Origin: a phage
Reading direction: 5' to 3' (one strand)
Sequence record: PZ386975.1
Length of the DNA stretch: 64,000 bases
The notes beneath the pieces are model-generated. The model saw nothing but the letters and a program-made list of their open reading frames with translations. It searched no databases and was not told the origin of the DNA. Made by a program: the position numbers and the translations under genes. Shown piece by piece: positions 4,685 through 35,715 of the stretch (positions are counted from its first letter, which is position 1; each line of letters begins with the position of its first letter).

Positions 4685-7051
4685 ATGCGCATGGTAAACG
4701 ACCACGCAGAAGTGATTAAGAGTTCAACTTCTTTGGAGACATCTCAAGCACAGATTACAATGACACCTGAAATGTTCAGCCTTTTAAGTTCAGGTGTATA
4801 CACATTTAAAGAAAGGGCAGTGATTCGTGAACTGTCATGTAACGCAGTAGATGCTCAAAAAGAAGCTGGAAAAGAGAACATCCCATTCCATGTGCATTTA
4901 CCTACTCGATTTGAGCCTTACTTTGAAGTCCGTGACTTTGGAACTGGTTTAACCCATGACAAAGTAATGAGTTTGTATCTGAACTATGGGGCTTCTACGA
5001 AGAATGACTCCAATGATTACATTGGTGCAATGGGTATCGGCTCAAAATCCCCATTTGCAATTGCTCAGTCATTCACAGTATCTAGCTATGTTGATGGTGT
5101 TGTTAATAAGTACTCTGTTTACCTTGAGAATGGTATCCCTCAAGTAACTAAGCTTACTACCAACCCAACAAATGAACCCAATGGTTTAGCTGTACGTGTA
5201 GCAGTTGCTGACCATCGTATTTCAAAGTTCTTTGAAGAGGCTGGTCACGTATACTCATACTTTGCTGTAAAACCAGAAAGTAACGTTGTATATGATGATG
5301 TATTAGCAGATATGAATGTCATTGCCCGTGAAGAGGGTGTTTATGATGCTATGATTCATAAGCAAAGCTGGCGTTCTAGTGGCAACAGGACAGAGTTTAA
5401 TGTGGTGATGGGTAATATTGCCTACCCAGTGAACATGGAAGCATTACTTGGTGATGATTTCTTCAAAGTCTTGCCAGAGTTTTTCCGTAGGAGCGTAGAC
5501 CTTGTAAACATCTACATGCCTATTGGTTCAGTGGCTATTGCAGCTTCTCGTGAAGCATTGCAGATGAATGACACGACAAAAAATGTTATCATTGAGGCTA
5601 CTAAAAAGATAACTGAAGCCATTACAAAGGATGTTATCAAGAAAGTTAACAGCCAACCTACACTCATGGATGCTGCACAGGCTTATGCTGAGTTACGTTT
5701 GAACTCACGAGAGATGTTTAATGCTGTGTGTCCAAAGCTAGAGTGGGGAGGCGTTAAGCTTGATTCTCTGGAAGAAGAATTACTAAACATTCGTCGTGGG
5801 ATTATCTACGCAGAAGACGGCTCAGTCATTTATGAACGTGACGGTAAAGGTAATATCAAGGTTGATAGGAACGGGAACAATATCCCTAAAGTGGATTATC
5901 TTTATAATCCAGTTGCTTATGTCAAGTTCAACTCTTTAGAGAGTAAGATTCGTGCAACAGCACTTTCCTACACTCAAGAGGCAAGTATGTTCAATATCTT
6001 TGGTGCAATGCGTAAAAGCCAAATTGAACAGTTTTTGTTCGTGATTAATGACCGTCGTAATAAAAATGGCACTGAGAAGACTGTAGGCCGCAATCAGATT
6101 CTGCGTGGTGCATGTCGAGACTACGCTAACGAGTCAAGCCTGTTCCACAGATACAATGGTATTGTGTTTGTATTCTCGACTGAAAAAGAGTTAGATGATT
6201 TAATCAATCTGCATAAACTTGATAAAAGTTTGTTAAAGATTGTGAAGATGTCTGATAAGGAACACCATTATCAGCGTAAAGAAGCTGTGAGGGGTGTTGT
6301 AAAACTCTGGAAAGCTGTTCCATCAGAAACTAAAGCTTCATACACAGAGGTGTCAGAAGACCTAGATACAATTGAAGAACCCCAGCTTTATATCAAGGCA
6401 GTAGGCGACACAGTTGATGGTGAATGTTTTTGCTCATCCCCAGAAGATGTAGCTAAAACAATTGCTAATGTTATAGGAAAAACAGTCTATGTTTTCCGAA
6501 AAGCAAATTGGAAAAAGATACCAGAAGACTGGATTGAAGTAGATGAGAAGCTATTGAATGACAGCTTAACTGATGTTCACTGGATTAATCATAACAGGTA
6601 TATGACACGTATCTATATGAATGGTGTCCTTGACCTTACAAGTAGTTGGATTATTGCCAGAAACTTTACGTTTAATAACAAGAAGATTTCTCGCGGGTAT
6701 TGCTATTCACGAGATACAAACAAAACCATCTTCTTAGAAGGTAATGAGAATGCTGTTGAGGCAATGTTTGGTAAGATTCAGTATGTGGCTGCACCGTTTG
6801 CATACACTTACACTATCAGTGTTCTTCAGGATTTGAAGTCATGCCTTGACAATGATACAAAACTGTACAAAAAGATTAAGAAAGCGGGTGACCGCATGGT
6901 TATCAAACTGACAAACTACCTTTCAAAAAGAAAACAAGAAAACTTCTTGCTTTCCCATTTAGATTGGAATAAAGTGTCACCCATCGAAGTGAGTAAGTTC
7001 TTAGGCTTTGATGTGAAGTGTGTTCCAGAAGGGACTACAATTTACGATTAA
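4685..7051 (+). CDS. rIIA: rIIA-like protein with N-terminal GHKL (Bergerat-fold) ATPase domain
   Basis: N-box ELSCNAVDA, G1 box VRDFGTGL, G2 box GAMGIGSKSPF; 788 aa; followed by candidate rIIB. Confidence 0.6.
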   Translation: MRMVNDHAEVIKSSTSLETSQAQITMTPEMFSLLSSGVYTFKERAVIRELSCNAVDAQKEAGKENIPFHVHLPTRFEPYFEVRDFGTGLTHDKVMSLYLNYGASTKNDSNDYIGAMGIGSKSPFAIAQSFTVSSYVDGVVNKYSVYLENGIPQVTKLTTNPTNEPNGLAVRVAVADHRISKFFEEAGHVYSYFAVKPESNVVYDDVLADMNVIAREEGVYDAMIHKQSWRSSGNRTEFNVVMGNIAYPVNMEALLGDDFFKVLPEFFRRSVDLVNIYMPIGSVAIAASREALQMNDTTKNVIIEATKKITEAITKDVIKKVNSQPTLMDAAQAYAELRLNSREMFNAVCPKLEWGGVKLDSLEEELLNIRRGIIYAEDGSVIYERDGKGNIKVDRNGNNIPKVDYLYNPVAYVKFNSLESKIRATALSYTQEASMFNIFGAMRKSQIEQFLFVINDRRNKNGTEKTVGRNQILRGACRDYANESSLFHRYNGIVFVFSTEKELDDLINLHKLDKSLLKIVKMSDKEHHYQRKEAVRGVVKLWKAVPSETKASYTEVSEDLDTIEEPQLYIKAVGDTVDGECFCSSPEDVAKTIANVIGKTVYVFRKANWKKIPEDWIEVDEKLLNDSLTDVHWINHNRYMTRIYMNGVLDLTSSWIIARNFTFNNKKISRGYCYSRDTNKTIFLEGNENAVEAMFGKIQYVAAPFAYTYTISVLQDLKSCLDNDTKLYKKIKKAGDRMVIKLTNYLSKRKQENFLLSHLDWNKVSPIEVSKFLGFDVKCVPEGTTIYD

Positions 7052-28374: not shown

Positions 28375-28455
28375 TTTTAAAAGGTGTTGACAGACTCTAC
28401 AAAGTTGCTCTAAAGTCTGTCACATCAAACAACAAATGAGAGAAGAGAGTAAAAT

Positions 28456-29871
28456 ATGAGCGAATTATTCAAACATGCGCACCTTCATGCAGGTCGAACT
28501 GAAAATGGTGCTGTAAACCATACTTCATCAATGTCTGCTCTTGTAGACTTTTACAAAGCTGCTGGTTCTAGCCGTAGCAATGTAGAAATCTTACCAGACT
28601 TGTTCTACAAAGCTTTGCATGAGGATGTTGATGTTGCAGTTCGTATTTTACTGCATATGCGAGATGTACGAGAAGGTATGGGTGAGCGTAAAGCTTTCCG
28701 AACTGTTTTACTTCAAGCGATTGAAGATAAGATTTTAGAGCCTACACAGGTTCTTCGCATTATGGATAAGATTGCAGAACTTGGTCGTTTTGATGACTTC
28801 AAAATCTTCGTAGGTACTCGTTTTGAGACAGATGCCTTCAAACATTTAGAAGCAGCATTACTAGACCCTGCAACAGCAGGTTTAGCAGCTAAGTGGTTGC
28901 CACGAGTAAAACCACGCCACAAACATTTTGTAAAACGTTTCTGTAAGTTTGCAAACTTAAGCGAGAAAGAGTACCGCACACTGTTATCTGCACTGTCTGA
29001 TACGGTTGAGCAAAAAATCTCTGCTAATGAGTTTGGTAAGATTGACTACAGCAAGATTCCTTCACTCGCTGCTGCACGTTACCAAAAACTCTTTAACCGT
29101 AAAGATGGAGAACGTTACAAAGCTTACATCGAATCACTCTCAAAGGGTGAGGCTAAGATTAACGCTGGTGCTGTTTACCCATACGATGTGATTAAGTCTA
29201 TCAAGCATGGTAATGCAGATGTTGCCAATGAGCAGTGGAAAGCACTACCAAACTGGATGGCAGAAGGTGAGAACATTCTGTGTATGACCGATGTTTCAAG
29301 CTCAATGTCTTGGGTGAATCTTGGTTCAATCACTGCCCTTGATATTGGTGTATCACTTGCCTTGTATGTAGCAGAACGCAATACTGGTTGTTTTAAGAAT
29401 GAGTTAATGGTTTACTCAACAAACCCTCACTTCATCGAACTGAGTGGTGATTTACGAAACCGTCATCGTCAGGTGATGCGTCATGTTGAATATGGCTCAA
29501 CTAACTTACAAGCAGCTTTTGACCGTATTCTTGAGATAGGTAAAAGAAACAACTTGACTCAGAAAGATATGCCAAGTAAGCTTATCATCTTCTCCGATAT
29601 GGAGTTCAATCAGGTTGATGGTGCTAACGGTCGTACAAACTTTGAAGCAATTCAGAGTAAGTACAAAAAAGCTGGATATGAGATGCCACAACTGGTATTC
29701 TGGTACTTAGCAAACCGTAATGGCACTTGCGAAGTATCTGTTAAGGATAACGGTGTAGCAATGGTATCTGGTTTCTCTCCAGCCACTTTAAAAGCTCTGC
29801 TTGGTGGTGAGAAGTTTGACCCAATCAGCGTAATGCTCAAAGCAGTAATGATTGACCGTTATATCTGGTAA
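28456..29871 (+). CDS. vWA-domain protein with helical N-terminal region (Ro60/TROVE-vWA-like architecture)
   Basis: MIDAS-like DxSxS motif (CMTDVSSSMS) at about aa 275; 471 aa; upstream of the tRNA/structured-RNA cluster. Confidence 0.5.
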   Translation: MSELFKHAHLHAGRTENGAVNHTSSMSALVDFYKAAGSSRSNVEILPDLFYKALHEDVDVAVRILLHMRDVREGMGERKAFRTVLLQAIEDKILEPTQVLRIMDKIAELGRFDDFKIFVGTRFETDAFKHLEAALLDPATAGLAAKWLPRVKPRHKHFVKRFCKFANLSEKEYRTLLSALSDTVEQKISANEFGKIDYSKIPSLAAARYQKLFNRKDGERYKAYIESLSKGEAKINAGAVYPYDVIKSIKHGNADVANEQWKALPNWMAEGENILCMTDVSSSMSWVNLGSITALDIGVSLALYVAERNTGCFKNELMVYSTNPHFIELSGDLRNRHRQVMRHVEYGSTNLQAAFDRILEIGKRNNLTQKDMPSKLIIFSDMEFNQVDGANGRTNFEAIQSKYKKAGYEMPQLVFWYLANRNGTCEVSVKDNGVAMVSGFSPATLKALLGGEKFDPISVMLKAVMIDRYIW

Positions 29872-29888
29872 AAAGTTTTAAAAAGGGT

Positions 29889-29917
29889 ATTGACAATGTG
29901 TTTGATACCCTTTAATA
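29889..29917 (+). promoter_or_regulatory. near-consensus sigma70-like promoter (TTGACA-17-TAATAT) embedded in a palindrome AAAGGGTAT..ATACCCTTT
   Basis: -35 at 29889-29894, -10 at 29912-29917; second candidate with TTGACA at 29981. Confidence 0.5.
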
Positions 29918-30036
29918 TGTTCTACATAGAAACGAAATGAGAGCTTTTCTAAGATACTGAAAAATATTTTAAAAAAGTTCTTGACAACCACTAAAAAATA
30001 ATGTTAAAGTGGTTACATAGAGTTTGAAAAGTTTAT

Positions 30037-30113
30037 CTCTGTTTAGCTCAGCTTGGTAGAGCGTTCCGTTTGGGGCGGTAAGGCCGGAGGTTCAAGTCCT
30101 CCAACAGAGACCA
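30037..30113 (+). tRNA. tRNA-Pro (anticodon UGG)
   Basis: acceptor CTCTGTT/AACAGAG, T-arm GGAGGTTCAAGTCCTCC, encoded CCA. Confidence 0.6.
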
Positions 30114-30130
30114 AATTTAAAGGGGTTACT

Positions 30131-30487
30131 ATGAGATTTTTAAAAGAATGTCCAGTTCATGGTTTAACTGAACATAGCATTCATAAGAATGGTAACGCCG
30201 GTAATAGAGTAAATTGTCTAAAATGTTGTGCATTAAGGACAAAACTTAGAGAGGATGCCAATAGGGAGAAAGCATACAAGTTTTATGGCGATAGTTGCAA
30301 AATTTGTGGCTATAATAAATGTAAAAATGCTTTAGAATGGCATCACCTTAACCCAAACGAAAAAGAGAATACACCATCAAAAATTATGGGTGCATCTTGG
30401 GAAAAGGTTAAAAAAGAACTTGATAAATGTGTTTTGCTCTGTGCTAATTGCCACAGAGAGGTTCATAGTGGAATTACAACGGTTTAA
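30131..30487 (+). CDS. HNH endonuclease
   Basis: Cys-rich Zn motifs (CLKCC, CKICG) and WHHLNPNEK...CANCHREVH HNH core; start moved to ATG 30131 because the track ORF overlaps tRNA-Pro. Confidence 0.75.
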   Translation: MRFLKECPVHGLTEHSIHKNGNAGNRVNCLKCCALRTKLREDANREKAYKFYGDSCKICGYNKCKNALEWHHLNPNEKENTPSKIMGASWEKVKKELDKCVLLCANCHREVHSGITTV

Positions 30488-30488
30488 T

Positions 30489-30563
30489 GTCGTAGAAGGC
30501 AAATGGTTAGCCACCTGACCTTCAATCAGTTGCTCGCAGGTTCGAATCCTGTCTACGACACCA
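30489..30563 (+). tRNA. tRNA, anticodon uncertain (loop CCTTCAA, possibly UUC/Glu)
   Basis: acceptor GTCGTAG/CTACGAC, T-arm GCAGGTTCGAATCCTGT, CCA. Confidence 0.45.
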
Positions 30564-30567
30564 GTTT

Positions 30568-30646
30568 TGACAGAAGACCAATTACAGCAAACTTAATCTT
30601 ATTCATCTGAAGGTAAATCGGACAAAGAAGAGATTTGGTCTGGTCA
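30568..30646 (+). ncRNA. structured RNA element Y1: conserved bulged helix (outer 4 bp TGAC/GTCA, internal loop AGA opposite G, inner AGACCAA/TTGGTCT)
   Basis: inverted repeat with covarying outer helix; shares motif CAGAAGACC..TACAGCAA with three paralogs. Confidence 0.4.
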
Positions 30647-30655
30647 TTAAGAATT

Positions 30656-30731
30656 GCGGGTATAGAGAAAGGGCGTCTCACATGTCTCATTAGCATGGTA
30701 TCGGCAGGTTCGACTCCTGCACCCGCCTCCA
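30656..30731 (+). tRNA. tRNA with anticodon CAU (Met or Ile2)
   Basis: anticodon stem CATGT/GCATG with loop CTCATTA; T-arm GCAGGTTCGACTCCTGC; acceptor has one mismatch. Confidence 0.45.
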
Positions 30732-30734
30732 ATT

Positions 30735-30800
30735 TTGCAGAAGACCGTATTCAGCAACAAACTACTTTTTGCGGATAAAAGAAAAAACACGGTCTGGCAA
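30735..30800 (+). ncRNA. structured RNA element Y2 (outer TTGC/GCAA, inner AGACCGT/ACGGTCT)
   Basis: same bulged-helix architecture as Y1 with compensatory changes. Confidence 0.4.
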
Positions 30801-30808
30801 TGTATTAA

Positions 30809-30885
30809 GGTTAGGAAGCACATAAGGTATGTGCGGTCGCCTGTTAAGCGAATGGCACAGGGTTCGAATCCCTGACTAACCGCCA
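30809..30885 (+). tRNA. tRNA-Asn (GUU)
   Basis: anticodon loop CTGTTAA, T-arm CAGGGTTCGAATCCCTG, G73, CCA. Confidence 0.55.
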
Positions 30886-30954
30886 AATTTAGGAGAGAAG
30901 CGATTGCTCACCGATTTGTAAGGTGCAAGTCCTTAGCCTGAATAGAAATTAAAT

Positions 30955-31042
30955 GTGTCGTTATCCCGTAGATGGTAGCGGTGGGGACTGTAAATCCCTT
31001 GTCATTGAGACTCGGTAGGTTCGACTCCTACACGGCACACCA
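30955..31042 (+). tRNA. tRNA-Tyr (GUA), long variable arm
   Basis: anticodon arm GGGGACTGTAAATCCCT; 88 nt; acceptor GTGTCGT/ACGGCAC. Confidence 0.6.
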
Positions 31043-31047
31043 ATAAA

Positions 31048-31125
31048 GGTTATGTAGTTTAATTTGGTTAAAATACTCCCCTGTCACGGGAGATGATGAG
31101 GGTTCAAATCCCTTCGTAACCGCCA
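31048..31125 (+). tRNA. tRNA-Asp (GUC)
   Basis: anticodon stem CTCCC/GGGAG with loop CTGTCAC; CCA. Confidence 0.6.
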
Positions 31126-31151
31126 ATTTTGAGAGGGCTATTTAGCCCCTC

Positions 31152-31186
31152 CCTTAAAGGGTTCTTACGAGTATCCTTTAAAGGAG
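31152..31186 (+). repeat. conserved palindromic hairpin CCTTAAAGGGTTCTTACGAGTATCCTTTAAAGG
   Basis: related copies at 34182-34208 and 32003-32030. Confidence 0.5.
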
Positions 31187-31265
31187 CAGAAGACCAAATA
31201 CAGCAAGAACGTATGAAAATTTCAAGCCAATTTAATTTTGAAAAATTTAAAACTTGGTCTGGCTC
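31184..31265 (+). ncRNA. structured RNA element Y3 (outer GAGC/GCTC, inner AGACCAA/TTGGTCT)
   Basis: same bulged-helix architecture. Confidence 0.4.
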
Positions 31266-31272
31266 AACAAAT

Positions 31273-31409
31273 TTACAGAAGACCGTTTACAGCAAAACTT
31301 AAACAATCTATTTCTCGGTAAAGAAAAGGCGAAGGTTCGATTCCTTCACTCGGCAGATGTCGAGTTGGTGTAATGGTAGCACTTAAGATGATAAACAACG
31401 GTCTGGTAA
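31273..31409 (+). ncRNA. structured RNA element Y4 (outer TTAC/GTAA, inner AGACCGTT/AACGGTCT) enclosing a circularly permuted tRNA-like module; Y-RNA/YrlA-like candidate
   Basis: T-arm GAAGGTTCGATTCCTTC (31331-31347), then 3' acceptor strand ACTCGGC, 5-nt linker, 5' acceptor strand GTCGAGT and D-arm TGGTGTAATGGTAGCAC. Confidence 0.45.
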
Positions 31410-31553
31410 TTATCTTTGTAGATAAGTTATTAAGCTTACCTGTGAGTATGCGACCACAAAGGGTGAAAGGGTAAATTCTAGATTTAAACCCAAAAAGGCA
31501 CATCGCTACAGACCTTAAGCAAGTCTGGGTAGCTTATCTACAAAGATAATTTA
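31405..31553 (+). repeat. 19-bp perfect inverted repeat TAATTATCTTTGTAGATAAG / CTTATCTACAAAGATAATT flanking about 108 nt
   Basis: arms at about 31405-31425 and 31534-31553, between Y4 and tRNA-Lys. Confidence 0.55.
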
Positions 31554-31555
31554 AT

Positions 31556-31631
31556 GGAAGTGTAGCAGAATGGTGATGCGGCAGACTTTTAATCTGACAG
31601 GCGATGGGTTCGAATCCCTCCACTTCTACCA
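31556..31631 (+). tRNA. tRNA-Lys (UUU)
   Basis: anticodon loop CTTTTAA; acceptor GGAAGTG/CACTTCT; paralog of tRNA at 32785. Confidence 0.5.
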
Positions 31632-31635
31632 AAAT

Positions 31636-31712
31636 GGTTCAGTCGCAGATAAGGTAATTCAAGGGTCTCATAAGACCTATGAATGTGGGTTCGATTCCCA
31701 TCTGAACCTCCA
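31636..31712 (+). tRNA. tRNA with anticodon CAU (Met or Ile2)
   Basis: acceptor GGTTCAG/CTGAACC, loop CTCATAA, T-arm GTGGGTTCGATTCCCAT. Confidence 0.5.
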
Positions 31713-31714
31713 AT

Positions 31715-31789
31715 TGTGGGTTAGCATAAATGGTAATGCAAACGGCTGATAACCGTTAGAAGAGGGTTCGATACCCTCACCTACAACCA
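31715..31789 (+). tRNA. tRNA-Ile (GAU)
   Basis: D-stem GCAT/ATGC, anticodon stem AACGG/CCGTT with loop CTGATAA. Confidence 0.6.
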
Positions 31790-31804
31790 ATTTCAATAAA
31801 GTTG

Positions 31805-31833
31805 TTGACATTGAGATGTGACTACTTTATAGT
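31805..31833 (+). promoter_or_regulatory. sigma70-like promoter TTGACA-17-TATAGT inside the tRNA cluster
   Basis: -35 at 31805-31810, -10 at 31828-31833. Confidence 0.5.
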
Positions 31834-32036
31834 AACCTTAGTTTTCGTTGCGTAGCGTCTATTTTGCAAATTTAAAATAAATGCAAACGACAATGTTTTT
31901 CTGGCAGTAGCTTGATAGGCTAAACACCAGTGAGGTCTTCCAATCCCTCATCAAAGAATTTGGCGTACTAGCCCACGGTATGATTAATAAAGTGGGCATC
32001 TTTAAGGGCTTTCTAAGAGAGTCTTTAAAGATTAAT

Positions 32037-32113
32037 GCACCCTTAGTTCAATTGGATAGAGCAACGGTCTTCTAAATCGTTAGTTACAGGTTCGAATCCT
32101 GTAGGGTGTACCA
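32037..32113 (+). tRNA. tRNA-Arg (UCU)
   Basis: anticodon loop CTTCTAA, T-arm ACAGGTTCGAATCCTGT. Confidence 0.6.
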
Positions 32114-32256
32114 ATTTAGTTAGCAGAATACTTAGACGACCTAAGCGGGTCTTCCTGTAGGGAGGTGGTCTGTATCTCATGTTTTCCAGAACATGTAAAT
32201 AATCTGAGAAGGGGCTTTACAGTGTTGAGATAATACGGTAAGCTTCGAATTATAGT

Positions 32257-32339
32257 ATGGGACGATGTTAAGACTCTAAGGCATGAGCAACGGATTCCAA
32301 CACCGTTTCAAAGGGGTTCAACTCCTCCGTCCCATGCCA
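32257..32339 (+). tRNA. atypical tRNA (83 nt, enlarged D region), anticodon possibly CCA (Trp)
   Basis: acceptor ATGGGAC/GTCCCAT perfect; anticodon region AACGG-ATTCCAACA-CCGTT. Confidence 0.4.
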
Positions 32340-32352
32340 AAGTCTTATTAGG

Positions 32353-32442
32353 GGTAGGTAGCGGCTAATGGTAGCCAAACTGTCTTGAAAACAGTTGCCA
32401 CTGTAGAGATACGGTGAGGGTTCGACTCCTTTACTTACCGCC
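32353..32442 (+). tRNA. tRNA-Ser (UGA), long variable arm
   Basis: anticodon stem ACTGT/ACAGT with loop CTTGAAA; 90 nt. Confidence 0.55.
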
Positions 32443-32698
32443 TAATAAGATTTTAAAGCCAAGCTTCATTCGGATGTTGCTTTGGTATCCCTCGTGTATT
32501 GTCGTACACACAGATAAAGCACCTAGTAGGTGTCACGGAGAAGAGATAATATCAAGCTCTCCAAAGGTTCTAGTCACCGGATTAAACAAGACTATGCAAA
32601 GACCTTTTTAGGTCTTTTTAGAGGGCTTCTAAGGTTATTACAGCTTGTTGTGGAACCTTGTTGCTTAGGTTCTTAGAAGTTCTCTAAAAAGATTTAAT

Positions 32699-32777
32699 GG
32701 GAGATTGACGGCAACTTGGTAGACCTATCTCGCTTAGAACGAGATGCTTGAGGGTTCGAATCCCTTGTCTCCTACCA
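32699..32777 (+). tRNA. tRNA with anticodon UAG (Leu-type) but short variable arm
   Basis: anticodon stem TCTCG/CGAGA with loop CTTAGAA; T-arm GAGGGTTCGAATCCCTT. Confidence 0.45.
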
Positions 32778-32784
32778 AATTAAT

Positions 32785-32860
32785 GCAGGTGTAGCAAAAT
32801 GGTTATGCGGCTGACTCTTAATCAGTAAGACGATGGGTTCAATTCCCTCCACCTGTACCA
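32785..32860 (+). tRNA. tRNA-Lys (CUU)
   Basis: anticodon loop CTCTTAA; paralog of 31556. Confidence 0.5.
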
Positions 32861-32866
32861 GACATT

Positions 32867-32943
32867 GGGGATGTAGTTTACATGGTTAAAACATAAGTTT
32901 TGCAAACTTAAGTACAGGGTTCAATTCCCTGCTTCTCCACCAA
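32867..32943 (+). tRNA. tRNA-Ala (UGC)
   Basis: D-stem GTTT/AAAC, anticodon stem TAAGT/ACTTA with loop TTTGCAA. Confidence 0.55.
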
Positions 32944-32949
32944 TTAGTG

Positions 32950-33023
32950 CATCCATAGTTTAAACGGGAAAATTACAGTCTTCCAAACTGAGGTTGAGGG
33001 TTCGATTCCCTCTGGATGCTCCA
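32950..33023 (+). tRNA. tRNA-Gly (UCC)
   Basis: acceptor GCATCCA/TGGATGC perfect; loop CTTCCAA. Confidence 0.55.
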
Positions 33024-33029
33024 AACAAT

Positions 33030-33106
33030 GCTGCTTTCGTATAATTGGCTATTACACATCCCTTGTAAGGATGGAAATGCAGGTTCGAGTCCTGTGAGCA
33101 GCACCA
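33030..33106 (+). tRNA. tRNA-Thr (UGU)
   Basis: anticodon stem CATCC/GGATG with loop CTTGTAA. Confidence 0.6.
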
Positions 33107-33109
33107 ATT

Positions 33110-33170
33110 CAGAGGTCAAGTGAAAGACCGCTGGTGTCAACTGAAGACCGTAACAAATTCCACGGAGTTG
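33110..33170 (+). ncRNA. fifth, more divergent stem-loop element containing the GAAGACCGT motif
   Basis: outer inverted repeat AGAGGTC/GACCTCT enclosing ..CTGAAGACCGTAACAAA.. Confidence 0.3.
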
Positions 33171-33201
33171 AGTTAGCGGCACAACTTCAGACCTCTTTCA
33201 T

Positions 33202-33276
33202 ACTCGCTTAGTTTATATGGTAAAACACCACCCTTACAAGATGAAGAAAAAGGTTCAAGTTCTTTAGTGAGTACCA
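33202..33276 (+). tRNA. tRNA, anticodon uncertain (loop CTTACAA, possibly UAC/Val)
   Basis: acceptor ACTCGCT/AGTGAGT, D-stem GTTT/AAAC; weak anticodon stem. Confidence 0.4.
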
Positions 33277-33277
33277 T

Positions 33278-33355
33278 GTTCCAGTATCCCAATTGGCAGA
33301 GGATGCAAGCTCAAACCTTGTACTAGTGACGGTTCGAATCCGTCTTGGAACACCA
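33278..33355 (+). tRNA. tRNA with anticodon CAA (Leu-type) but short variable arm
   Basis: anticodon stem GCAAG/CTTGT with loop CTCAAAC; T-arm GACGGTTCGAATCCGTC. Confidence 0.45.
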
Positions 33356-33374
33356 ATTTTAAGAGGCTATTTAG

Positions 33375-33932
33375 ATGAGATACTTAAAGTATGCTTCATG
33401 GATTTTCTTAGCTTTGTTAGAGCCATTTGCAGCAATCTTAGCAGTTATCTTAGCACCTTTTGTAGTTCCATTCTACAGTGAGAAGAAAGGACACTTACCT
33501 TTCGGGTTCAGATGGATGGAGACATATGACAACCCAATTGATGGTGATGAAGGTCACGTTAAAAGATGGGCTAATATTAGATGGATTGGTAAGCTGGGTG
33601 TCTACATGCAGAGAGTTGGATGGCTCTGGAGAAACAAAGCTTATAATTTCTCTTACCATGTATTAGGAAGAGATGTAAAAGATGTTACTAAGTGGAAAGG
33701 TAATATCAACGTAAGTTCTGACCCTGAAGATAATCAGACTGGTTATCTCCTAATGTGGAACAGTAATGCTTGGGGATTATTCGCTTTTATTCCGTCAATT
33801 AAAATCTTTGGTAAACAGTTTTACTGGAGAATTTATGTTGGATGGAAACTAAAAAGTGTTGTCCCAGAAGAAAGAGCATTCTCAAGGGAAAGAGTTATGT
33901 TGGCATTCTTTATTCATCCGCTGAGAAAGTAA
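33375..33932 (+). CDS. hypothetical integral membrane protein (185 aa) embedded in the tRNA cluster
   Basis: RBS AAGAGG; N-terminal hydrophobic helices; Trp-rich. Confidence 0.55.
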   Translation: MRYLKYASWIFLALLEPFAAILAVILAPFVVPFYSEKKGHLPFGFRWMETYDNPIDGDEGHVKRWANIRWIGKLGVYMQRVGWLWRNKAYNFSYHVLGRDVKDVTKWKGNINVSSDPEDNQTGYLLMWNSNAWGLFAFIPSIKIFGKQFYWRIYVGWKLKSVVPEERAFSRERVMLAFFIHPLRK

Positions 33933-33940
33933 AGATTTAA

Positions 33941-34016
33941 AGGGGATTAGTTTACAAGGTTAAAACCTCGGTCTTTGAAATCGAAGAAGTTGGTTCAATT
34001 CCAACATCCCCCGCCA
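33941..34016 (+). tRNA. tRNA-Gln (UUG)
   Basis: anticodon loop CTTTGAA; weak 1-72 pair. Confidence 0.55.
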
Positions 34017-34018
34017 AT

Positions 34019-34096
34019 GCTCCATTACTCCAATTGGCAGAGAGGCCAGACTTAAAATCTGTGTTATGTATCGGTTCGAATCCGATATGGAGTACC
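34019..34096 (+). tRNA. tRNA with anticodon UAA (Leu-type) but short variable arm
   Basis: anticodon loop CTTAAAA; T-arm ATCGGTTCGAATCCGAT. Confidence 0.45.
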
Positions 34097-34101
34097 AATT
34101 T

Positions 34102-34177
34102 TAGCGGTATAGCATAACTGGCAATGCAACAGTCTCTGAAGCTGTCCTATTAAGGTTCAAATCCTTATGCCGCTGCC
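34102..34177 (+). tRNA. tRNA-Gln (CUG)
   Basis: D-stem GCAT/ATGC, anticodon stem ACAGT/GCTGT with loop CTCTGAA. Confidence 0.55.
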
Positions 34178-34209
34178 ACTTCTAAGGATTCTTACGAGAG
34201 TCCTTAAAT

Positions 34210-34285
34210 GTGGCCTTATCATAAATGGTAATGACCCATGCTGTGAACATGGTCTATACGGGTTCGACTCCCGTAGGTCACCCCA
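34210..34285 (+). tRNA. tRNA-His (GUG)
   Basis: anticodon stem CCATG/CATGG with loop CTGTGAA; discriminator C73. Confidence 0.6.
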
Positions 34286-34291
34286 ATTTAT

Positions 34292-34367
34292 AGTCCAAGT
34301 AGCTTATATGGTTAAAGCGCGTGTCTGAAAAACATGAGAAGAGGGTTCAAATCCCACTGGACTACCA
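34292..34367 (+). tRNA. tRNA-Phe (GAA)
   Basis: D-stem GCTT/AAGC, anticodon loop CTGAAAA; acceptor boundaries approximate. Confidence 0.5.
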
Positions 34368-34383
34368 ATTTCAAAGGTGCTTA

Positions 34384-35118
34384 ATGAAAGAGATGACAGA
34401 ACAAGGTAAGGAGATTTTTAATCTCTTAAAAACCGGTAAAGGGTTTTCTAACCCACTTATTACTGGTGCAGCAGTTCTCGGTGGAACCGTAGCTGCCTCT
34501 ACATCACTTGTAAGCTCCATTAGCTCTGTAACAGACCCTACAATGAAGGAGAAGCTTGTTGCTGCTGGACTTACAACAGTCCTTCTAAACAGCTTTACAA
34601 CAAGCCTGACAAGCACTACAGCAACTACTAAGACCCTAACAGACTATGGTCAAAAGTCTATTGATGAGTTTTCATCACGTATGCAGGTAGCAAAGGGGTA
34701 TTCCAATGTTATGGGTGCAGCAGGAGAACAAGTTGGTTGTACACCATTCAGTGGTATTATGGGTGTTGCTACAGAGTATGGTCAAAAAGCTATTGACATG
34801 ATGAACAGTACACTAGATAGTGTTAACGGTGTGTTAAGTGACTTACAAGACGCTATTGATAAGGGTCTTGCTACTGTTTCTGATTTAGCTAATCAGGCTG
34901 TTAGTAAGATTAATGAAGGTATCTCAAAGATTACAGCTTATGCAGATGAAGTTGTGCAGATGATTGAAGAAGAAGCTGCCCTTATTGCAGAGTACCTTAA
35001 AACGAATATCAATGGGTTCTTAGCAGGTATCTTACCAGACTGGTTTGATGATGCTTGTAAAACTGGTGTAATCGACACTATTGCAACACCAGAAATGAAG
35101 AACGCATTACAGAAATAA
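34384..35118 (+). CDS. hypothetical Ser/Thr/Ala-rich protein (244 aa)
   Basis: start moved to ATG 34384 (RBS AGGTG) because the track ORF start overlaps tRNA-Phe. Confidence 0.5.
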   Translation: MKEMTEQGKEIFNLLKTGKGFSNPLITGAAVLGGTVAASTSLVSSISSVTDPTMKEKLVAAGLTTVLLNSFTTSLTSTTATTKTLTDYGQKSIDEFSSRMQVAKGYSNVMGAAGEQVGCTPFSGIMGVATEYGQKAIDMMNSTLDSVNGVLSDLQDAIDKGLATVSDLANQAVSKINEGISKITAYADEVVQMIEEEAALIAEYLKTNINGFLAGILPDWFDDACKTGVIDTIATPEMKNALQK

Positions 35119-35119
35119 T

Positions 35120-35212
35120 GGAAGATTAACCCTAAAAGGTAAGGGAGCAGTTTGCTAAACTGCCAGTAGCTGAGAAATCGGTGTACCAGTTCAAGTCTGG
35201 TATCTTCCTCCA
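35120..35212 (+). tRNA. tRNA-Ser (GCU), long variable arm
   Basis: acceptor GGAAGAT/ATCTTCC, anticodon stem GCAGT/ACTGC with loop TTGCTAA; 93 nt. Confidence 0.6.
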
Positions 35213-35216
35213 ATTT

Positions 35217-35292
35217 GAATCCGTGACAGAAATGGATATGTGCCTGTCTGCAAAACAGGTTTATAAGGGTTCAAGTCCCTTCGGATTCTCCA
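35217..35292 (+). tRNA. tRNA-Cys (GCA)
   Basis: acceptor GAATCCG/CGGATTC perfect, anticodon stem CCTGT/ACAGG with loop CTGCAAA, U73, CCA. Confidence 0.65.
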
Positions 35293-35514
35293 AGTTATTT
35301 TACTCTCTCTCAATTAAAATAATAATAATGCCCTGCTATAAGTATTCTTCCTTTCGCTACCGAAGAGTATTTTTAGACAGGGCTTTTTTACAGAGTTATA
35401 CTTTATAGGAAGACTTATACAGTATGTCTCTGACGTACATTGTGGTTTCTCCTTGACGGTCTCTGTGCCGTCTTTTTTAAGGGGAAACAAGATTTATTAT
35501 TTGGAGAAAACATA

Positions 35515-35715
35515 ATGAGCGAGAACGTTTATAAAGAACTTTATGAAGCTAACAAGAAGTTAGAGTTTATGCAGAATACTATCATGGCAATTGCAGATAG
35601 ATTATCTGTAGCAACAGGTATTGATATTAAAGAAGCATCTATGGATGCACTTCTTGATGCTGTTGATGCAAAGTTCGAAGTTAAGAAAGAAGAGACTGCT
35701 ACAGACTCTGAATAA
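35515..35715 (+). CDS. hypothetical small acidic protein (66 aa) immediately upstream of terminase
   Basis: ATG 35515 with RBS TGGAGAAAA; longer track ORF start lacks an RBS. Confidence 0.4.
   Translation: MSENVYKELYEANKKLEFMQNTIMAIADRLSVATGIDIKEASMDALLDAVDAKFEVKKEETATDSE

What the first reader, a model, noticed from the sequence alone, without database searches (positions are those of the whole stretch)
30568..31409. Four paralogous structured-RNA elements with a covarying bulged helix interspersed among tRNA genes (Y-RNA-like)
Elements at 30568-30646, 30735-30800, 31184-31265 and 31273-31409 share the same design: a 4-bp outer helix that differs in each copy but keeps complementarity (TGAC/GTCA, TTGC/GCAA, GAGC/GCTC, TTAC/GTAA), a conserved asymmetric internal loop (AGA opposite G), an inner helix AGACC(A/G).., and a conserved 5' motif TACAGCAA(A)AC. 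Compensatory changes indicate selection for RNA structure rather than protein coding or a DNA site. A closed bulged helix formed by the 5' and 3' ends is the hallmark of Y RNAs.
Basis: seen in the sequence. Interest (0 to 1): 0.85.

Follow-up and report, generated by a model that had tools for sequence, protein, structure and literature searches.

The report
Phage Y-like RNAs beside Ro-like protein
Four small structured RNAs tucked between the tRNA genes of a Felix O1-type phage belong to a widespread, so far unannotated family that always sits next to a phage version of the Ro60 ring protein, so they are very probably that protein's RNA partners (Y-RNA-like), which gives a concrete handle on what phage Ro proteins do.

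Summary

The window is a Felixounavirus. The ORF just upstream (28456-29871; Pfam DUF2828 + vWA) models confidently, and its only strong structural matches are Ro60/Rsr proteins.

The RNA design recurs beside homologues of this protein in very different phages, including Yersinia, Vibrio, Listeria, Campylobacter and Mycobacterium phages and dozens of metagenomic contigs.
- A covariance model trained only on distant contigs ranks the window's elements as its top hits.
- All 109 hits across 64 sources lie on the protein's strand and cluster around the gene.
- The inner helix is paired in 98.9% of cells, and all 7 pairs show compensatory changes.

Element 4 and many relatives carry a permuted tRNA-like module (T arm, acceptor-like hairpin, D arm), as in bacterial YrlA.

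The elements fail the Rfam Y_RNA and YrlA models and lack the GNCGAA motif. I therefore file them as a new variant of Y-like RNA, not a member of those families. Protein binding and expression were not tested.

The parts
28387..28416 (+). sigma-70-like promoter of the Ro60-like gene (TTGACA-18-TAAAGT)
   Evidence: Consensus scan, 10/12 matches. Consensus match only.
28456..29871 (+). Ro60-like ring protein gene (471 aa; Pfam DUF2828 + DUF7788/vWA), the presumed protein partner
   Evidence: Pfam hits. AF2 model with pLDDT 90.4 and pTM 0.90. Foldseek PDB top 10 are all Ro60/Rsr: 9KOP at E 8e-9, 2I91 with TM 0.65, and 2NVO. The MIDAS residues D279/S281/S283/T349/D381 are invariant in 71 homologues.
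29890..30010 (+). two tandem sigma-70-like promoters (29890-29918, 29981-30010) ahead of tRNA-Pro, the likely start of the tRNA/Y-like RNA precursor
   Evidence: Consensus scan, 10/12 each. Co-transcription is inferred.
30489..30564 (+). tRNA (Rfam 55.4 bits; missed by ARAGORN; annotated tRNA-Glu in relatives), whose 3' end lies 4 nt before e1
30568..30646 (+). Y-like RNA element 1 (79 nt): TGAC/GTCA outer helix, AGA/G loop, AGACCAA/TTGGTCT inner helix, TTACAGCAAAC motif, small interior hairpin
   Evidence: Top hit in the window for model R1, which was trained only on distant phages (27 bits, E 0.0018). Model R2 scores it 43.2 bits.
30655..30731 (+). tRNA-Met; its RNase P site would define the 3' end of e1, and its CCA lies 3 nt before e2
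   Evidence: The processing is inferred.
30735..30800 (+). Y-like RNA element 2 (66 nt): TTGC/GCAA outer helix, AGA/G loop, AGACCGT/ACGGTCT inner helix, ATTCAGCAAC motif, A-rich interior
   Evidence: R1 scores it 25.6 bits, E 0.0037. Orthologues carry TTAC/GTAA, a compensatory change.
31184..31265 (+). Y-like RNA element 3 (82 nt): GAGC/GCTC outer helix, AGA/G loop, AGACCAA/TTGGTCT inner helix, ATACAGCAAG motif, interior hairpin
   Evidence: R1 scores it 16.5 bits, E 0.36, the third-best hit in the window. R2 scores it 31.4 bits. Orthologues carry GAGC/GTTC and GGGC/GCTC.
31273..31409 (+). Y-like RNA element 4 (137 nt): TTAC/GTAA outer helix, AGA/G loop, AGACCGTT/AACGGTCT inner helix, TTACAGCAAAAC motif, and a permuted tRNA-like module
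   Evidence: R2 scores it 38.2 bits over the full length.
31331..31347 (+). T-arm-like hairpin of e4 (GAAGGTTCGATTCCTTC)
   Evidence: MFE fold. In 13 relatives, 4 of 5 pairs show compensatory changes.
31348..31365 (+). acceptor-stem-like 7-bp hairpin of e4 (ACTCGGC-AGAT-GTCGAGT)
   Evidence: Orthologues carry ACACG..CGTGT and ACCCTTC..GAAGGGT, so the stem covaries.
31368..31382 (+). D-arm-like hairpin of e4 (GTGTAATGGTAGCAC)
   Evidence: The sequence is conserved across relatives.

Best explanation
The four elements are paralogous non-coding RNAs of a phage-specific Y-RNA-like family. They are the RNA partners of the Ro60-like ring protein encoded just upstream (28456-29871).

Shown:
- Each element closes its 5' and 3' ends into a two-part helix whose base pairs are maintained by compensatory change.
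- A single-stranded (U)WCAGCAA motif directly follows the 5' strand of the inner helix.
- This helix-plus-motif module is the only part conserved across the family.
- The module co-occurs, on the same strand and within about 0-3 kb, with DUF2828-type Ro60 homologues in phages of Proteobacteria, Firmicutes, Actinobacteria and Campylobacter.

Inferred:
- The elements are co-transcribed with the tRNAs from the strong promoters at 29890-30010.
- They are released by the tRNA-processing enzymes: RNase P at the next tRNA's 5' end, and RNase E/Z plus exonucleases after the previous tRNA's CCA.
- The Ro-like ring binds the helix/ACAGCAA module. The variable interiors act as adaptor or tether modules, as Y RNAs tether Ro60/Rsr to PNPase.
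- e4 presents a tRNA mimic (T arm, 7-bp acceptor-like hairpin, D arm).

Speculative:
- The RNP works in tRNA/RNA surveillance or in countering host defence. The orthologous protein of phage Bas63, gp130, was reported to counter the ppl defence system.
For: - The anatomy is exact in all four copies and far beyond chance.
- All four copies are conserved in every Ounavirinae genome examined. They show compensatory and G.U changes.
- Yersinia phage P778 (protein 53% identical) has three copies between its tRNAs. Its helix is GGACTGT/ACAGTCC, against AGACCGT/ACGGTCT in the window.
- Control for the motif scan: 128 of 163 distinct + strand 5' motifs have a perfect 7-bp partner, against 15 expected. 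On the - strand, 0 of 14 do.
- Model R1 was built only from 18 metagenomic elements, with no Ounavirinae sequence. It ranks e1, e2 and e3 as the top three hits in the 64-kb window.
- 109/109 hits and 27/27 hits are on the gene's strand. None lies inside the gene, and 42 of 63 upstream hits lie within 500 nt of it.
- Helix covariation: 98.9% of cells paired, 7/7 pairs with double changes, 0/500 shuffles reaching the observed value, slid controls 30-42%.
- The family also occurs next to the homologous gene in Listeria phage P100 (three copies behind their own promoter), Campylobacter phage CP8 (two copies) and mycobacteriophage LilDestine (three copies, one tRNA-like).
- In many distant loci, a 40-nt minimal copy sits in the protein's own mRNA leader with its 3' strand abutting the Shine-Dalgarno. 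This is the classic layout of autogenous control by an RNA-binding protein.
- The protein has a Ro60 fold.
- The tRNA-like module has YrlA's permuted order. A family member, L072 1422-1528, aligns full-length to Rfam YrlA at 36.7 bits, E 5e-7.
- Literature: Y RNAs lie near Ro60 on the same strand, and one per species is tRNA-like (PMC4201824). Bas63 gp130 is Ro60-like, lies upstream of the tRNAs and counters ppl, and its Y RNAs were only guessed at (PMC11482910). The P100-like phage CKA15 has highly transcribed unannotated, apparently non-coding regions near its tRNA genes and upstream of its Ro-like gene (PMC12282133).
Against: - There is no expression or binding data for this phage.
- Rfam Y_RNA and YrlA give no hit on e1-e4, even at E<=10.
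- The canonical Ro-binding motifs (GGUCCGA, GNCGAAN0-1G) are absent.
- The protein is not recognised by Pfam TROVE or by a PDB sequence-profile search; only the fold matches.
- The window's own Ro-like leader lacks the mini-motif.
- The seeds for R1 were picked by a scan that required perfect pairing, and alignment A6 is fitted to the model. Both inflate the pairing figures, although and the slid controls address this.
- 15 of 64 loci gave no R1 hit. Some of them hold long variants found only by pattern.
- I could not confirm that the CKA15 high-expression regions coincide with the elements.
Confidence: 0.8

Rival explanations
1. The elements are structured spacers of the tRNA precursor. They would be processing or insulator hairpins that help RNase P/E/III cut the polycistronic transcript, or protect it, with no relation to the Ro-like protein.
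For: e1 and e2 fill the inter-tRNA spacers almost exactly. P778 shows the same interleaving. Other structured non-tRNA stretches exist in the array, for example a 17-bp stem at 31411-31548.
Against: The same module occurs where no tRNA is adjacent, while the Ro-like gene is always adjacent.
- LilDestine has three copies directly downstream of the gene, and no tRNA gene is annotated in the ~9.4-kb stretch examined.
- P100 has three copies behind their own promoter.
- There are many copies in mRNA leaders.
- Hits cluster on the gene rather than on tRNAs.
- T4's tRNA-cluster RNAs rnaC and rnaD do not match the model.
- A conserved single-stranded 7-mer shared by phages of four bacterial phyla is not expected of a spacer.
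Confidence: 0.07
2. The elements are trans-acting base-pairing sRNAs. The exposed UACAGCAA would be a seed against a host or phage RNA, the terminal helix would only give stability, and linkage to the Ro-like gene would be incidental or reflect co-regulation.
For: The most conserved feature is a short motif with no conserved complement inside the element, so it is presumably single-stranded. It is presented at a fixed place next to a helix, and several paralogues share it.
Against: - The seed is identical in phages of E. coli, Listeria, Mycobacterium, Campylobacter and Vibrio. This would require a universally conserved target.
- The complement TTGCTGT is not enriched in the window (21 matches against 14.9 expected), and no + strand match falls within the tRNA array.
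- This reading does not explain the minimal copy abutting the Shine-Dalgarno of the Ro-like gene.
- It does not explain the tRNA-like module.
Confidence: 0.08
3. The elements are decayed tRNA genes, or DNA-level repeats such as recombination or endonuclease target sites. They would have no RNA function of their own.
For: They lie in a tRNA array. e4 has T- and D-arm-like sequences. An HNH endonuclease ORF is inserted nearby at 30053-30487.
Against: - e1-e3 have no tRNA features. ARAGORN and Rfam tRNA do not call any of the four elements.
- The G.U pairs and the strict strand bias (109/109) point to an RNA on the + strand.
- Compensatory changes preserve pairing, not sequence.
- Conservation extends across genera with 36-54% protein identity.
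Confidence: 0.03

Closest known systems
YrlA (Y RNA-like A; Rfam RF02553) of Salmonella, Mycobacterium smegmatis and some phages, bound by Rsr/Ro60 (Chen et al. 2014, PMC4201824)
   Same: - It is encoded within a few kb of a Ro60 homologue on the same strand.
- The 5' and 3' ends pair into a closing stem interrupted by internal loops, and a conserved motif starts in or after the 5' strand.
- Several paralogues occur per genome, of which one carries a permuted tRNA-like domain (T arm, then acceptor-like hairpin, then D arm).
- A relative of e4, L072, aligns end to end with the YrlA model (36.7 bits).
   Different: - e1-e4 do not reach the YrlA model even at E<=10.
- The conserved motif is (U)WCAGCAA after an AG-N5 helix, not GNCGAAN0-1G.
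- The partner protein is the DUF2828 branch, not an annotated TROVE protein.
- The genes are embedded in a tRNA array.
Metazoan Y RNAs (RF00019) and Deinococcus radiodurans Yrn1/Yrn2
   Same: These are small RNAs whose termini form a bulged helix that is the Ro60 binding site. Their variable loop modules tether other proteins such as PNPase.
   Different: There is no sequence or model similarity. The internal loop is AGA/G, not a bulged C within GGUCCGA. No oligo-U/La-type 3' end is expected.
Thermus phage phiLo phiRo60 with Yrl1/Yrl2 (PMC12135203; PDB 9KOP, 9L5Y)
   Same: It is a phage-encoded Ro60 homologue with two adjacent Y-like RNAs. phiRo60 is the best structural match of the window's protein (E 8e-9). 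Binding to the RNAs and to host PNPase was shown there in vitro.
   Different: The phiLo RNAs were picked by a CGAA motif in a large bulge. The proteins are only ~15-16% identical. There is no tRNA-array context.
Bas63 gp130 (Felixounavirus; PhageMaP preprint, PMC11482910)
   Same: By position (directly upstream of the tRNA genes) and by fold, it is very probably the orthologue of ORF 28456-29871. It was reported to counter the ppl defence system, and the authors suspected Y RNA partners.
   Different: That paper guessed that some annotated tRNA genes might be Y RNAs. The elements described here are unannotated non-tRNA spacers. Orthology to Bas63 was not checked by sequence here.
Phage T4 rnaC/rnaD (species 1 and 2 stable RNAs in the tRNA cluster)
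   Same: These are stable small RNAs of unknown function encoded inside a phage tRNA cluster and matured with the tRNAs.
   Different: Model R2 gives no hit on them, and no homologue of the protein was seen in the 10-kb T4 stretch retrieved around the tRNA cluster (the rest of the T4 genome was not searched). The resemblance is one of context only.

Membership tests
Y RNA (functional class: Ro60-bound ncRNA) | Physically bound and stabilised by a Ro60 orthologue | not testable with these tools
   Needs RIP/CLIP or EMSA. Only genomic linkage and a leader mimic are available.
Y RNA (functional class: Ro60-bound ncRNA) | 5' and 3' termini pair into a stem interrupted by a bulge or internal loop | tested here: met
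   All four MFE folds show it. Covariation supports the inner helix and the outer helix.
Y RNA (functional class: Ro60-bound ncRNA) | Encoded next to the Ro60 orthologue, on the same strand (the bacterial/phage rule of Chen et al. 2014) | tested here: met
   e1 starts 697 nt after the stop codon of the Ro60-fold ORF. In the wider family, 109/109 hits are on the same strand and cluster at the gene.
Y RNA (functional class: Ro60-bound ncRNA) | Canonical Ro-binding sequence (GGUCCGA in animals; GNCGAAN0-1G in bacteria) | tested here: not met
   The 5' strands read (N)CAGAAGACC.... The nearest resemblance is C-AGAAG against CGAAG. The family-wide conserved motif is WCAGCAA.
Rfam Y_RNA RF00019 | Match to the covariance model | tested here: not met
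   No hit at E<=10 in 29800-35600.
Rfam YrlA RF02553 | Score at or above the gathering threshold (69 bits) | tested here: not met
   No hit on e1-e4 at E<=10. Distant family members score 36.7 bits (L072) and 21.7 bits (LilDestine).
Rfam YrlA RF02553 | tRNA-like domain in the order T arm, acceptor-like hairpin, D arm, closed by a short stem | tested here: met
   e4 only. Shown by the fold and by covariation of the T arm and acceptor hairpin in 13 relatives. e1-e3 lack this domain, as do YrlB-type RNAs.
tRNA (RF00005) | Cloverleaf recognised by ARAGORN or Rfam | tested here: not met
   Neither ARAGORN nor Rfam at gathering threshold calls any of the elements. e4 gets a partial 15.2-bit match to the T arm only. 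An artificial un-permuted construct of e4 is not called by ARAGORN.
Ro60/Rsr (TROVE + vWA) protein family, for ORF 28456-29871 | HEAT-repeat ring followed by a vWA domain (overall fold) | tested here: met
   The AF2 model has pLDDT 90.4. The ten best PDB matches, the only ones with E<1e-6, are Ro60/Rsr chains aligned over ~510-550 columns.
Ro60/Rsr (TROVE + vWA) protein family, for ORF 28456-29871 | MIDAS motif (DxSxS...T...D) in the vWA domain | tested here: met
   D279, S281, S283, T349 and D381 are invariant in 71 homologues.
Ro60/Rsr (TROVE + vWA) protein family, for ORF 28456-29871 | Sequence-level match to the TROVE profile or to solved Ro60 sequences | tested here: not met
   Pfam gives DUF2828 + DUF7788 and no TROVE hit at E<=0.01. 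A profile search of PDB sequences finds no Ro60.

The most novel reading that the evidence does not exclude
DUF2828-type Ro-like proteins and 'ACAGCAA' RNAs form a distinct, phage-wide ribonucleoprotein system with its own recognition code (an AG-N5 helix plus single-stranded UACAGCAA).
- The protein would autoregulate through a leader mimic next to its Shine-Dalgarno.
- Modular RNA paralogues, including a tRNA mimic matured by the tRNA-processing machinery, would act as adaptors or decoys. They would protect the phage's tRNA supply or neutralise nuclease-type host defences such as ppl.
- The same code could then be used to look for the unknown RNA partners of the eukaryotic DUF2828 proteins. 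Eukaryotic membership is from memory of the Pfam family description and from plant papers that mention DUF2828; it was not tested here.
Probability: 0.3. Interest if true: 0.85.

Novelty: new variant of a known kind. Interest (0 to 1): 0.72.

Why it matters
- **Scale of the gap.** Ro60-like genes are common in large phages. This protein family has homologues in 710 GenBank phage records and more than 2800 proteins in the metagenome search. Their RNA partners and their function are essentially unknown.
- **What the literature has.** Two recent papers (Bas63 and Listeria CKA15) could only speculate that Y RNAs exist nearby.
- **A searchable partner.** The RNA module defined here (helix plus ACAGCAA) gives those proteins concrete candidate ligands in Felix O1-type, KVP40-type, P100-type, CP8-type and cluster-L mycobacteriophages.
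- **A candidate recognition element.** It can be tested directly by mutation and compensatory mutation.
- **A link to tRNA biology.** The RNAs are embedded in tRNA arrays, and one paralogue is a tRNA mimic.
- **A possible autoregulatory circuit.** A minimal copy of the module sits in the protein's own mRNA leader in many distant loci.
- **Annotation.** These loci are currently blank or mis-called as small ORFs in public records.

Tried and rejected
- **MAFFT alignments.** Alignments of whole elements (A2, A3, A4) put the 3' strand of the Felix-type copies one column out of register or scattered it. I did not use them for pair counts. I built the model from the flush alignment A5 of distant copies only.
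- **PDB sequence-profile search** with the protein alignment found no Ro60. Fold comparison was needed.
- **Rfam.** At gathering threshold and at E<=10 there is nothing on e1-e4 except chance-level Dicty_Class_I_RNA hits (E 1.9-7.5).
- **ARAGORN** on an artificial 'un-permuted' e4 construct called no tRNA, so I call the module tRNA-like only.
- **T4 rnaC/rnaD** as possible relatives gave no model hit.
- **Base-pairing target idea.** The complement TTGCTGT is not enriched.
- **Leader mimic in this window.** It is absent. The leader instead has an 8-bp inverted repeat across the promoter.
- **CKA15 coordinates.** I tried to map the highly transcribed CKA15 regions onto the P100 elements, but the coordinates could not be matched with confidence.
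- **Literature access.** The supplement of Chen et al. 2014 (its phage list) and two Wolin-lab reviews were not available. One literature search was too broad to be useful.
- **Aeromonas phage Ah1-type loci** gave no convincing element.
Full report
**1. What the window is**

The 4-kb stretch around the finding is 94-96% identical to Felix O1-like myoviruses: Salmonella phage Meda, Escherichia phages nataliec and JH2, and many 'Felixounavirus' records. The finding lies in the phage's tRNA array. ARAGORN finds 24 tRNAs, and Rfam adds one at 30489-30560.

**2. The observation**

Reading the sequence and a pattern scan confirm the four elements at exactly the stated coordinates.
- Outer 4-bp helices: TGAC/GTCA, TTGC/GCAA, GAGC/GCTC, TTAC/GTAA.
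- Internal loop: AGA opposite G.
- Inner helix: AGACCAA/TTGGTCT or AGACCGT/ACGGTCT.
- Motif: (T/A)T(A/T)CAGCAA directly after the 5' strand of the inner helix.

The gapped pattern AGAAGACC...GGTCTGG is found 3 times where 0.01 is expected. The fourth copy is simply longer. Each element folds on its own into the same closing design.

e1 and e2 fill inter-tRNA spacers almost exactly, starting 3-4 nt after the upstream CCA and ending 8 nt before the next tRNA. e3 and e4 are adjacent, between tRNA-Asp and tRNA-Lys. No GenBank record I inspected annotates these elements.

**3. The neighbouring protein**

ORF 28456-29871 matches Pfam DUF2828 plus a vWA domain (DUF7788), and not TROVE. A profile search of PDB sequences finds no Ro60.

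An AlphaFold2 model built on 71 homologues is confident (pLDDT 90.4, pTM 0.90). Its ten best PDB matches, the only ones below E 1e-6, are all Ro60 proteins aligned over nearly their full length:
- Thermus phage phiLo Ro60 (9KOP, 9L5Y);
- Xenopus and human Ro60 (2I91, 1YVP, 9NFA; TM up to 0.66);
- D. radiodurans Rsr (2NVO).

The MIDAS residues DxSxS...T...D are invariant in the family. The protein is therefore a divergent Ro60 homologue by fold.

The family is large. It has homologues in 710 phage records: Felixounavirus, KVP40-like Vibrio phages, and Aeromonas, Campylobacter, Listeria, Enterococcus, Staphylococcus, Bacillus and Mycobacterium phages. Some are already annotated 'Ro-like RNA binding protein'. 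The metagenome protein search returned more than 2800 proteins.

**4. Relatives of the RNA elements**

- **Close relatives.** All four elements are present in Suspvirus and Mooglevirus genomes and in about 28 Felix-like IMG/VR contigs.
  - Changes keep the pairing. e2's outer helix is TTGC/GCAA in some genomes and TTAC/GTAA in others, which is a double change.
  - e3 has GAGC/GTTC and GGGC/GCTC.
  - Inner helices have AGGCC/GGTCT and AGACTGT/ACGGTCT.
  - The G.U pairs make sense only for an RNA read from the + strand.
- **Yersinia phage P778** (protein 53% identical). Three copies sit between tRNAs with the helix GGACTGT/ACAGTCC (also GGATTC/GAATCC and GGACTC/GAGTCC) and the same TTACAGCAA / ATTCAGCAA motif.
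- **Vibrio phage ValKK3.** It has a 257-nt version (GCAAT-A-AGACATT-GTACAGCAA...AATGTCT-GTGT-ATTGC) right after the last tRNA and before a terminator.

**5. A family-wide test**

Scanning 80 IMG/VR loci fetched through the protein showed a recurring design: A-AG-N5-(N)-WWCAGCAA ... N5'-CU-G.

- **Control for the scan.** Of 163 distinct + strand 5' motifs, 128 have a perfectly complementary 7-mer ending in CT within 330 nt. Shuffled downstream sequence gives 15.1. On the - strand, none of 14 motifs has a partner.
- **Model R1.** I built this covariance model from 18 short elements taken only from distant contigs (protein 36-48% identical), with only the 7-bp helix as structure.
- **R1 on the window.** In the whole 64-kb window, both strands, its three best hits are e1 (27 bits, E 0.0018), e2 (25.6 bits, E 0.0037) and e3 (16.5 bits, E 0.36).
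- **R1 across loci.** Over 64 sources (0.79 Mb), all 109 hits with E<=1 are on the strand of the Ro-like gene, in 49 of the 64 sources. None lies inside the gene. 42 of 63 upstream hits are within 500 nt of it.
- **Pair counts.** On the resulting alignment (88 distinct rows), 98.9% of cells pair and all 7 pairs have compensatory changes (214 cells). 0/500 shuffles reach the observed paired fraction, number of double-change cells or covariation score, and slid-partner controls give 30-42% pairing.
- **Caveats.** The alignment is fitted to the model, and the seeds were chosen for perfect pairing. The control and the blind recovery of the window's elements are the independent supports.
- **Outer helix.** A second helix outside the first, separated by a small loop, is present in 69% of 89 distinct elements, against 41% in a permuted control (0/200 permutations as high). 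The 3x1 AGA/G loop is specific to the Felix group.
- **Model R2.** Rebuilt from all hits, it finds all four window elements (31-43 bits) and no further copy.

**6. The same family in unrelated phages**

R1 finds the following:
- three tandem copies in Listeria phage P100, behind their own TTGACA/TATCAT promoter and just upstream of the Ro-like gene gp165;
- two copies in Campylobacter phage CP8, between the last tRNA and the gene;
- three copies directly downstream of the 'Ro-like RNA binding protein' gene of mycobacteriophage LilDestine, with no tRNA gene annotated in the ~9.4-kb stretch examined.

The link is therefore to the protein, not to tRNA arrays as such.

**7. The tRNA-like module**

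The interior of e4 folds into four parts:
- a V-like hairpin;
- a T arm (GAAGGTTCGATTCCTTC);
- a 7-bp acceptor-like hairpin;
- a D arm (GTGTAATGGTAGCAC).

This is the permuted order described for YrlA. Many family members have the same module. In 13 of them the T arm shows compensatory changes in 4 of 5 pairs, and the acceptor-like hairpin also covaries.

One member, L072 1422-1528, aligns end to end with Rfam YrlA at 36.7 bits (E 5e-7; gathering score 69). The LilDestine copy scores 21.7 bits. e4 itself gets no YrlA hit. An artificial un-permuted construct of e4 is not called a tRNA by ARAGORN.

Chen et al. [quoted passage not shown] The window shows the same pattern: e4 is tRNA-like and e1-e3 are not.

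**8. A leader mimic**

In many distant loci, a 40-44-nt minimal copy lies in the 5' UTR of the Ro-like gene. Its layout is AAAG-AAUUU-N-AACAGCAA-~12 nt-AAAUU-CUG, and its 3' strand runs straight into the Shine-Dalgarno (AAGGAG). ValKK3 has the 5' half of this motif.

This is the usual layout for translational self-repression by an RNA-binding protein. It is indirect evidence that the helix plus ACAGCAA is what the protein recognises. The window's own leader lacks it.

**9. How it most likely works**

*Shown.* The elements are a conserved, strand-specific, covarying closing helix with an adjacent conserved single-stranded motif. They are genomically coupled to a protein with the Ro60 fold. The interiors are modular, and one is tRNA-like.

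*Inferred.*
- Transcription starts from the two consensus promoters at 29890-30010 as part of the tRNA precursor.
- The RNAs are released by RNase P and by the tRNA 3'-end processing enzymes.
- The ring protein binds the closing module.
- The interiors serve as tethers or gates, as in the Ro60-Y RNA-PNPase complexes.

*Speculative.* The RNP has a role in tRNA/RNA surveillance or in anti-defence. The Bas63 protein gp130 is Ro60-like, lies directly upstream of the tRNAs and counters the ppl system (PMC11482910). Orthology to the window's ORF is inferred from position and fold and was not checked by sequence.

In the P100-like phage CKA15, unannotated, apparently non-coding regions near the tRNA genes and upstream of the Ro-like gene are among the most highly transcribed parts of the genome, and the protein was found in virions (PMC12282133). 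I could not verify that those regions are the elements.

**10. Rivals**

- **Structured spacers for precursor processing (0.07).** This fits the interleaving, but not the copies that have no tRNA neighbour, the leader copies, or the clustering on the gene.
- **Seed-pairing sRNAs (0.08).** This fits the exposed conserved 7-mer, but not its identity across phages of four bacterial phyla. Complementary sites are not enriched either.
- **Decayed tRNAs or DNA repeats (0.03).** This is contradicted by the G.U pairs, the strand bias and the compensatory changes.

**11. Comparison with what is known, and novelty**

In function and architecture these elements resemble bacterial and phage Y RNAs, that is YrlA and YrlB. 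By the curated definitions they are not members.
- There is no Rfam Y_RNA or YrlA match.
- There is no GNCGAA or GGUCCGA motif.
- The partner protein is not recognised as TROVE at sequence level.

In the literature I could search, the existence of such RNAs in Felix-type and P100-type phages was only conjectured, and 'DUF2828' returns no relevant paper. I rate the finding a new variant of a known kind: a distinct Y-like RNA family with its own recognition module, tied to the DUF2828 branch of Ro60. This judgement is limited to the held library and Rfam 15.

Noticed in passing
window 31840-32036 (+), tag ORF 31883-31918: A highly structured RNA lies downstream of its own promoter (TTGACA at 31805, TATAGT at 31828) and just before tRNA-Arg; a 247-nt stretch (31790-32036) that includes it and the promoter folds with z -4.6. 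It contains an ssrA-like tag frame, GCA AAC GAC AAT GTT TTT CTG GCA GTA GCT TGA TAG = ANDNVFLAVA**. The frame is conserved across Ounavirinae genera with synonymous changes (GAC/GAT, TGA/TAA). Rfam gives only weak tmRNA hits (RF00023 E 0.0017; tmRNA_permuted 32.5 bits), and ARAGORN calls no tmRNA. It may be a phage tmRNA-like or two-piece tmRNA gene.
   Followed up: partly
window 31411-31548 (+): A 17-bp perfect closing stem (TTATCTTTGTAGATAAG / CTTATCTACAAAGATAA) encloses a ~105-nt interior, directly after e4 and before tRNA-Lys. There is no Rfam hit. It could be another ncRNA or an RNase III processing site.
   Followed up: no
L038 5950-5989, L039 5950-5990, L042/L044/L054/L059 ~5946-5989, L047 5946-5989, L049 1760-1799, L052 5949-5988, L055 3485-3525; L004 5963-5980: A minimal 40-44-nt copy of the helix+ACAGCAA module lies in the 5' UTR of the Ro-like gene, with its 3' strand abutting the Shine-Dalgarno. 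This suggests translational autoregulation. It is absent from the window's own leader.
   Followed up: partly
window 28389-28396 and 28414-28421: An 8-bp inverted repeat, GACAGACT...AGTCTGTC, spans the -35 to +1 region of the promoter of the Ro-like gene. It may be an operator or a leader hairpin.
   Followed up: no
window 30053-30487 (+): An ORF with a weak HNH endonuclease match is inserted between tRNA-Pro and the next tRNA. Many close relatives cover only ~89% of this 4-kb region, so it may be a mobile insertion into the tRNA array that those relatives lack; the position of the uncovered stretch was not checked.
   Followed up: no
window 30489-30560 (+): A tRNA is called by Rfam (55.4 bits) but missed by ARAGORN. 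Relatives annotate tRNA-Glu(TTC) at this position.
   Followed up: no
L088 (Listeria phage P100), L089 (Campylobacter phage CP8), L003 (Yersinia phage P778), L005 (Aeromonas phage Ah1): In unrelated phage lineages the Ro-like gene sits right next to, or within a few kb of, the phage's tRNA cluster. In the P100-like phage CKA15 the protein was detected in purified virions (PMC12282133).
   Followed up: partly
L088 2872-3530: In Listeria phage P100, a consensus promoter (TTGACACTATATGAAATCTATGGTATAGT) is followed by ~600 nt of unannotated sequence between tRNA-Pro and gp166. This may be the very highly transcribed 'CKA15_059-061' region of the related phage.
   Followed up: no
window 32114-32352 and 32443-32698 (+): Two further long non-tRNA gaps lie inside the tRNA array. 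The second contains a long hairpin, which Rfam hits only as chance miRNA-precursor matches at 32604-32703.
   Followed up: no
L003 8020-8150 and 8300-8390: The tRNA array of Yersinia phage P778 contains T-arm-bearing stretches (GGTTCGATTCCC) that ARAGORN does not call as tRNAs. They could be interrupted or tRNA-like genes.
   Followed up: no
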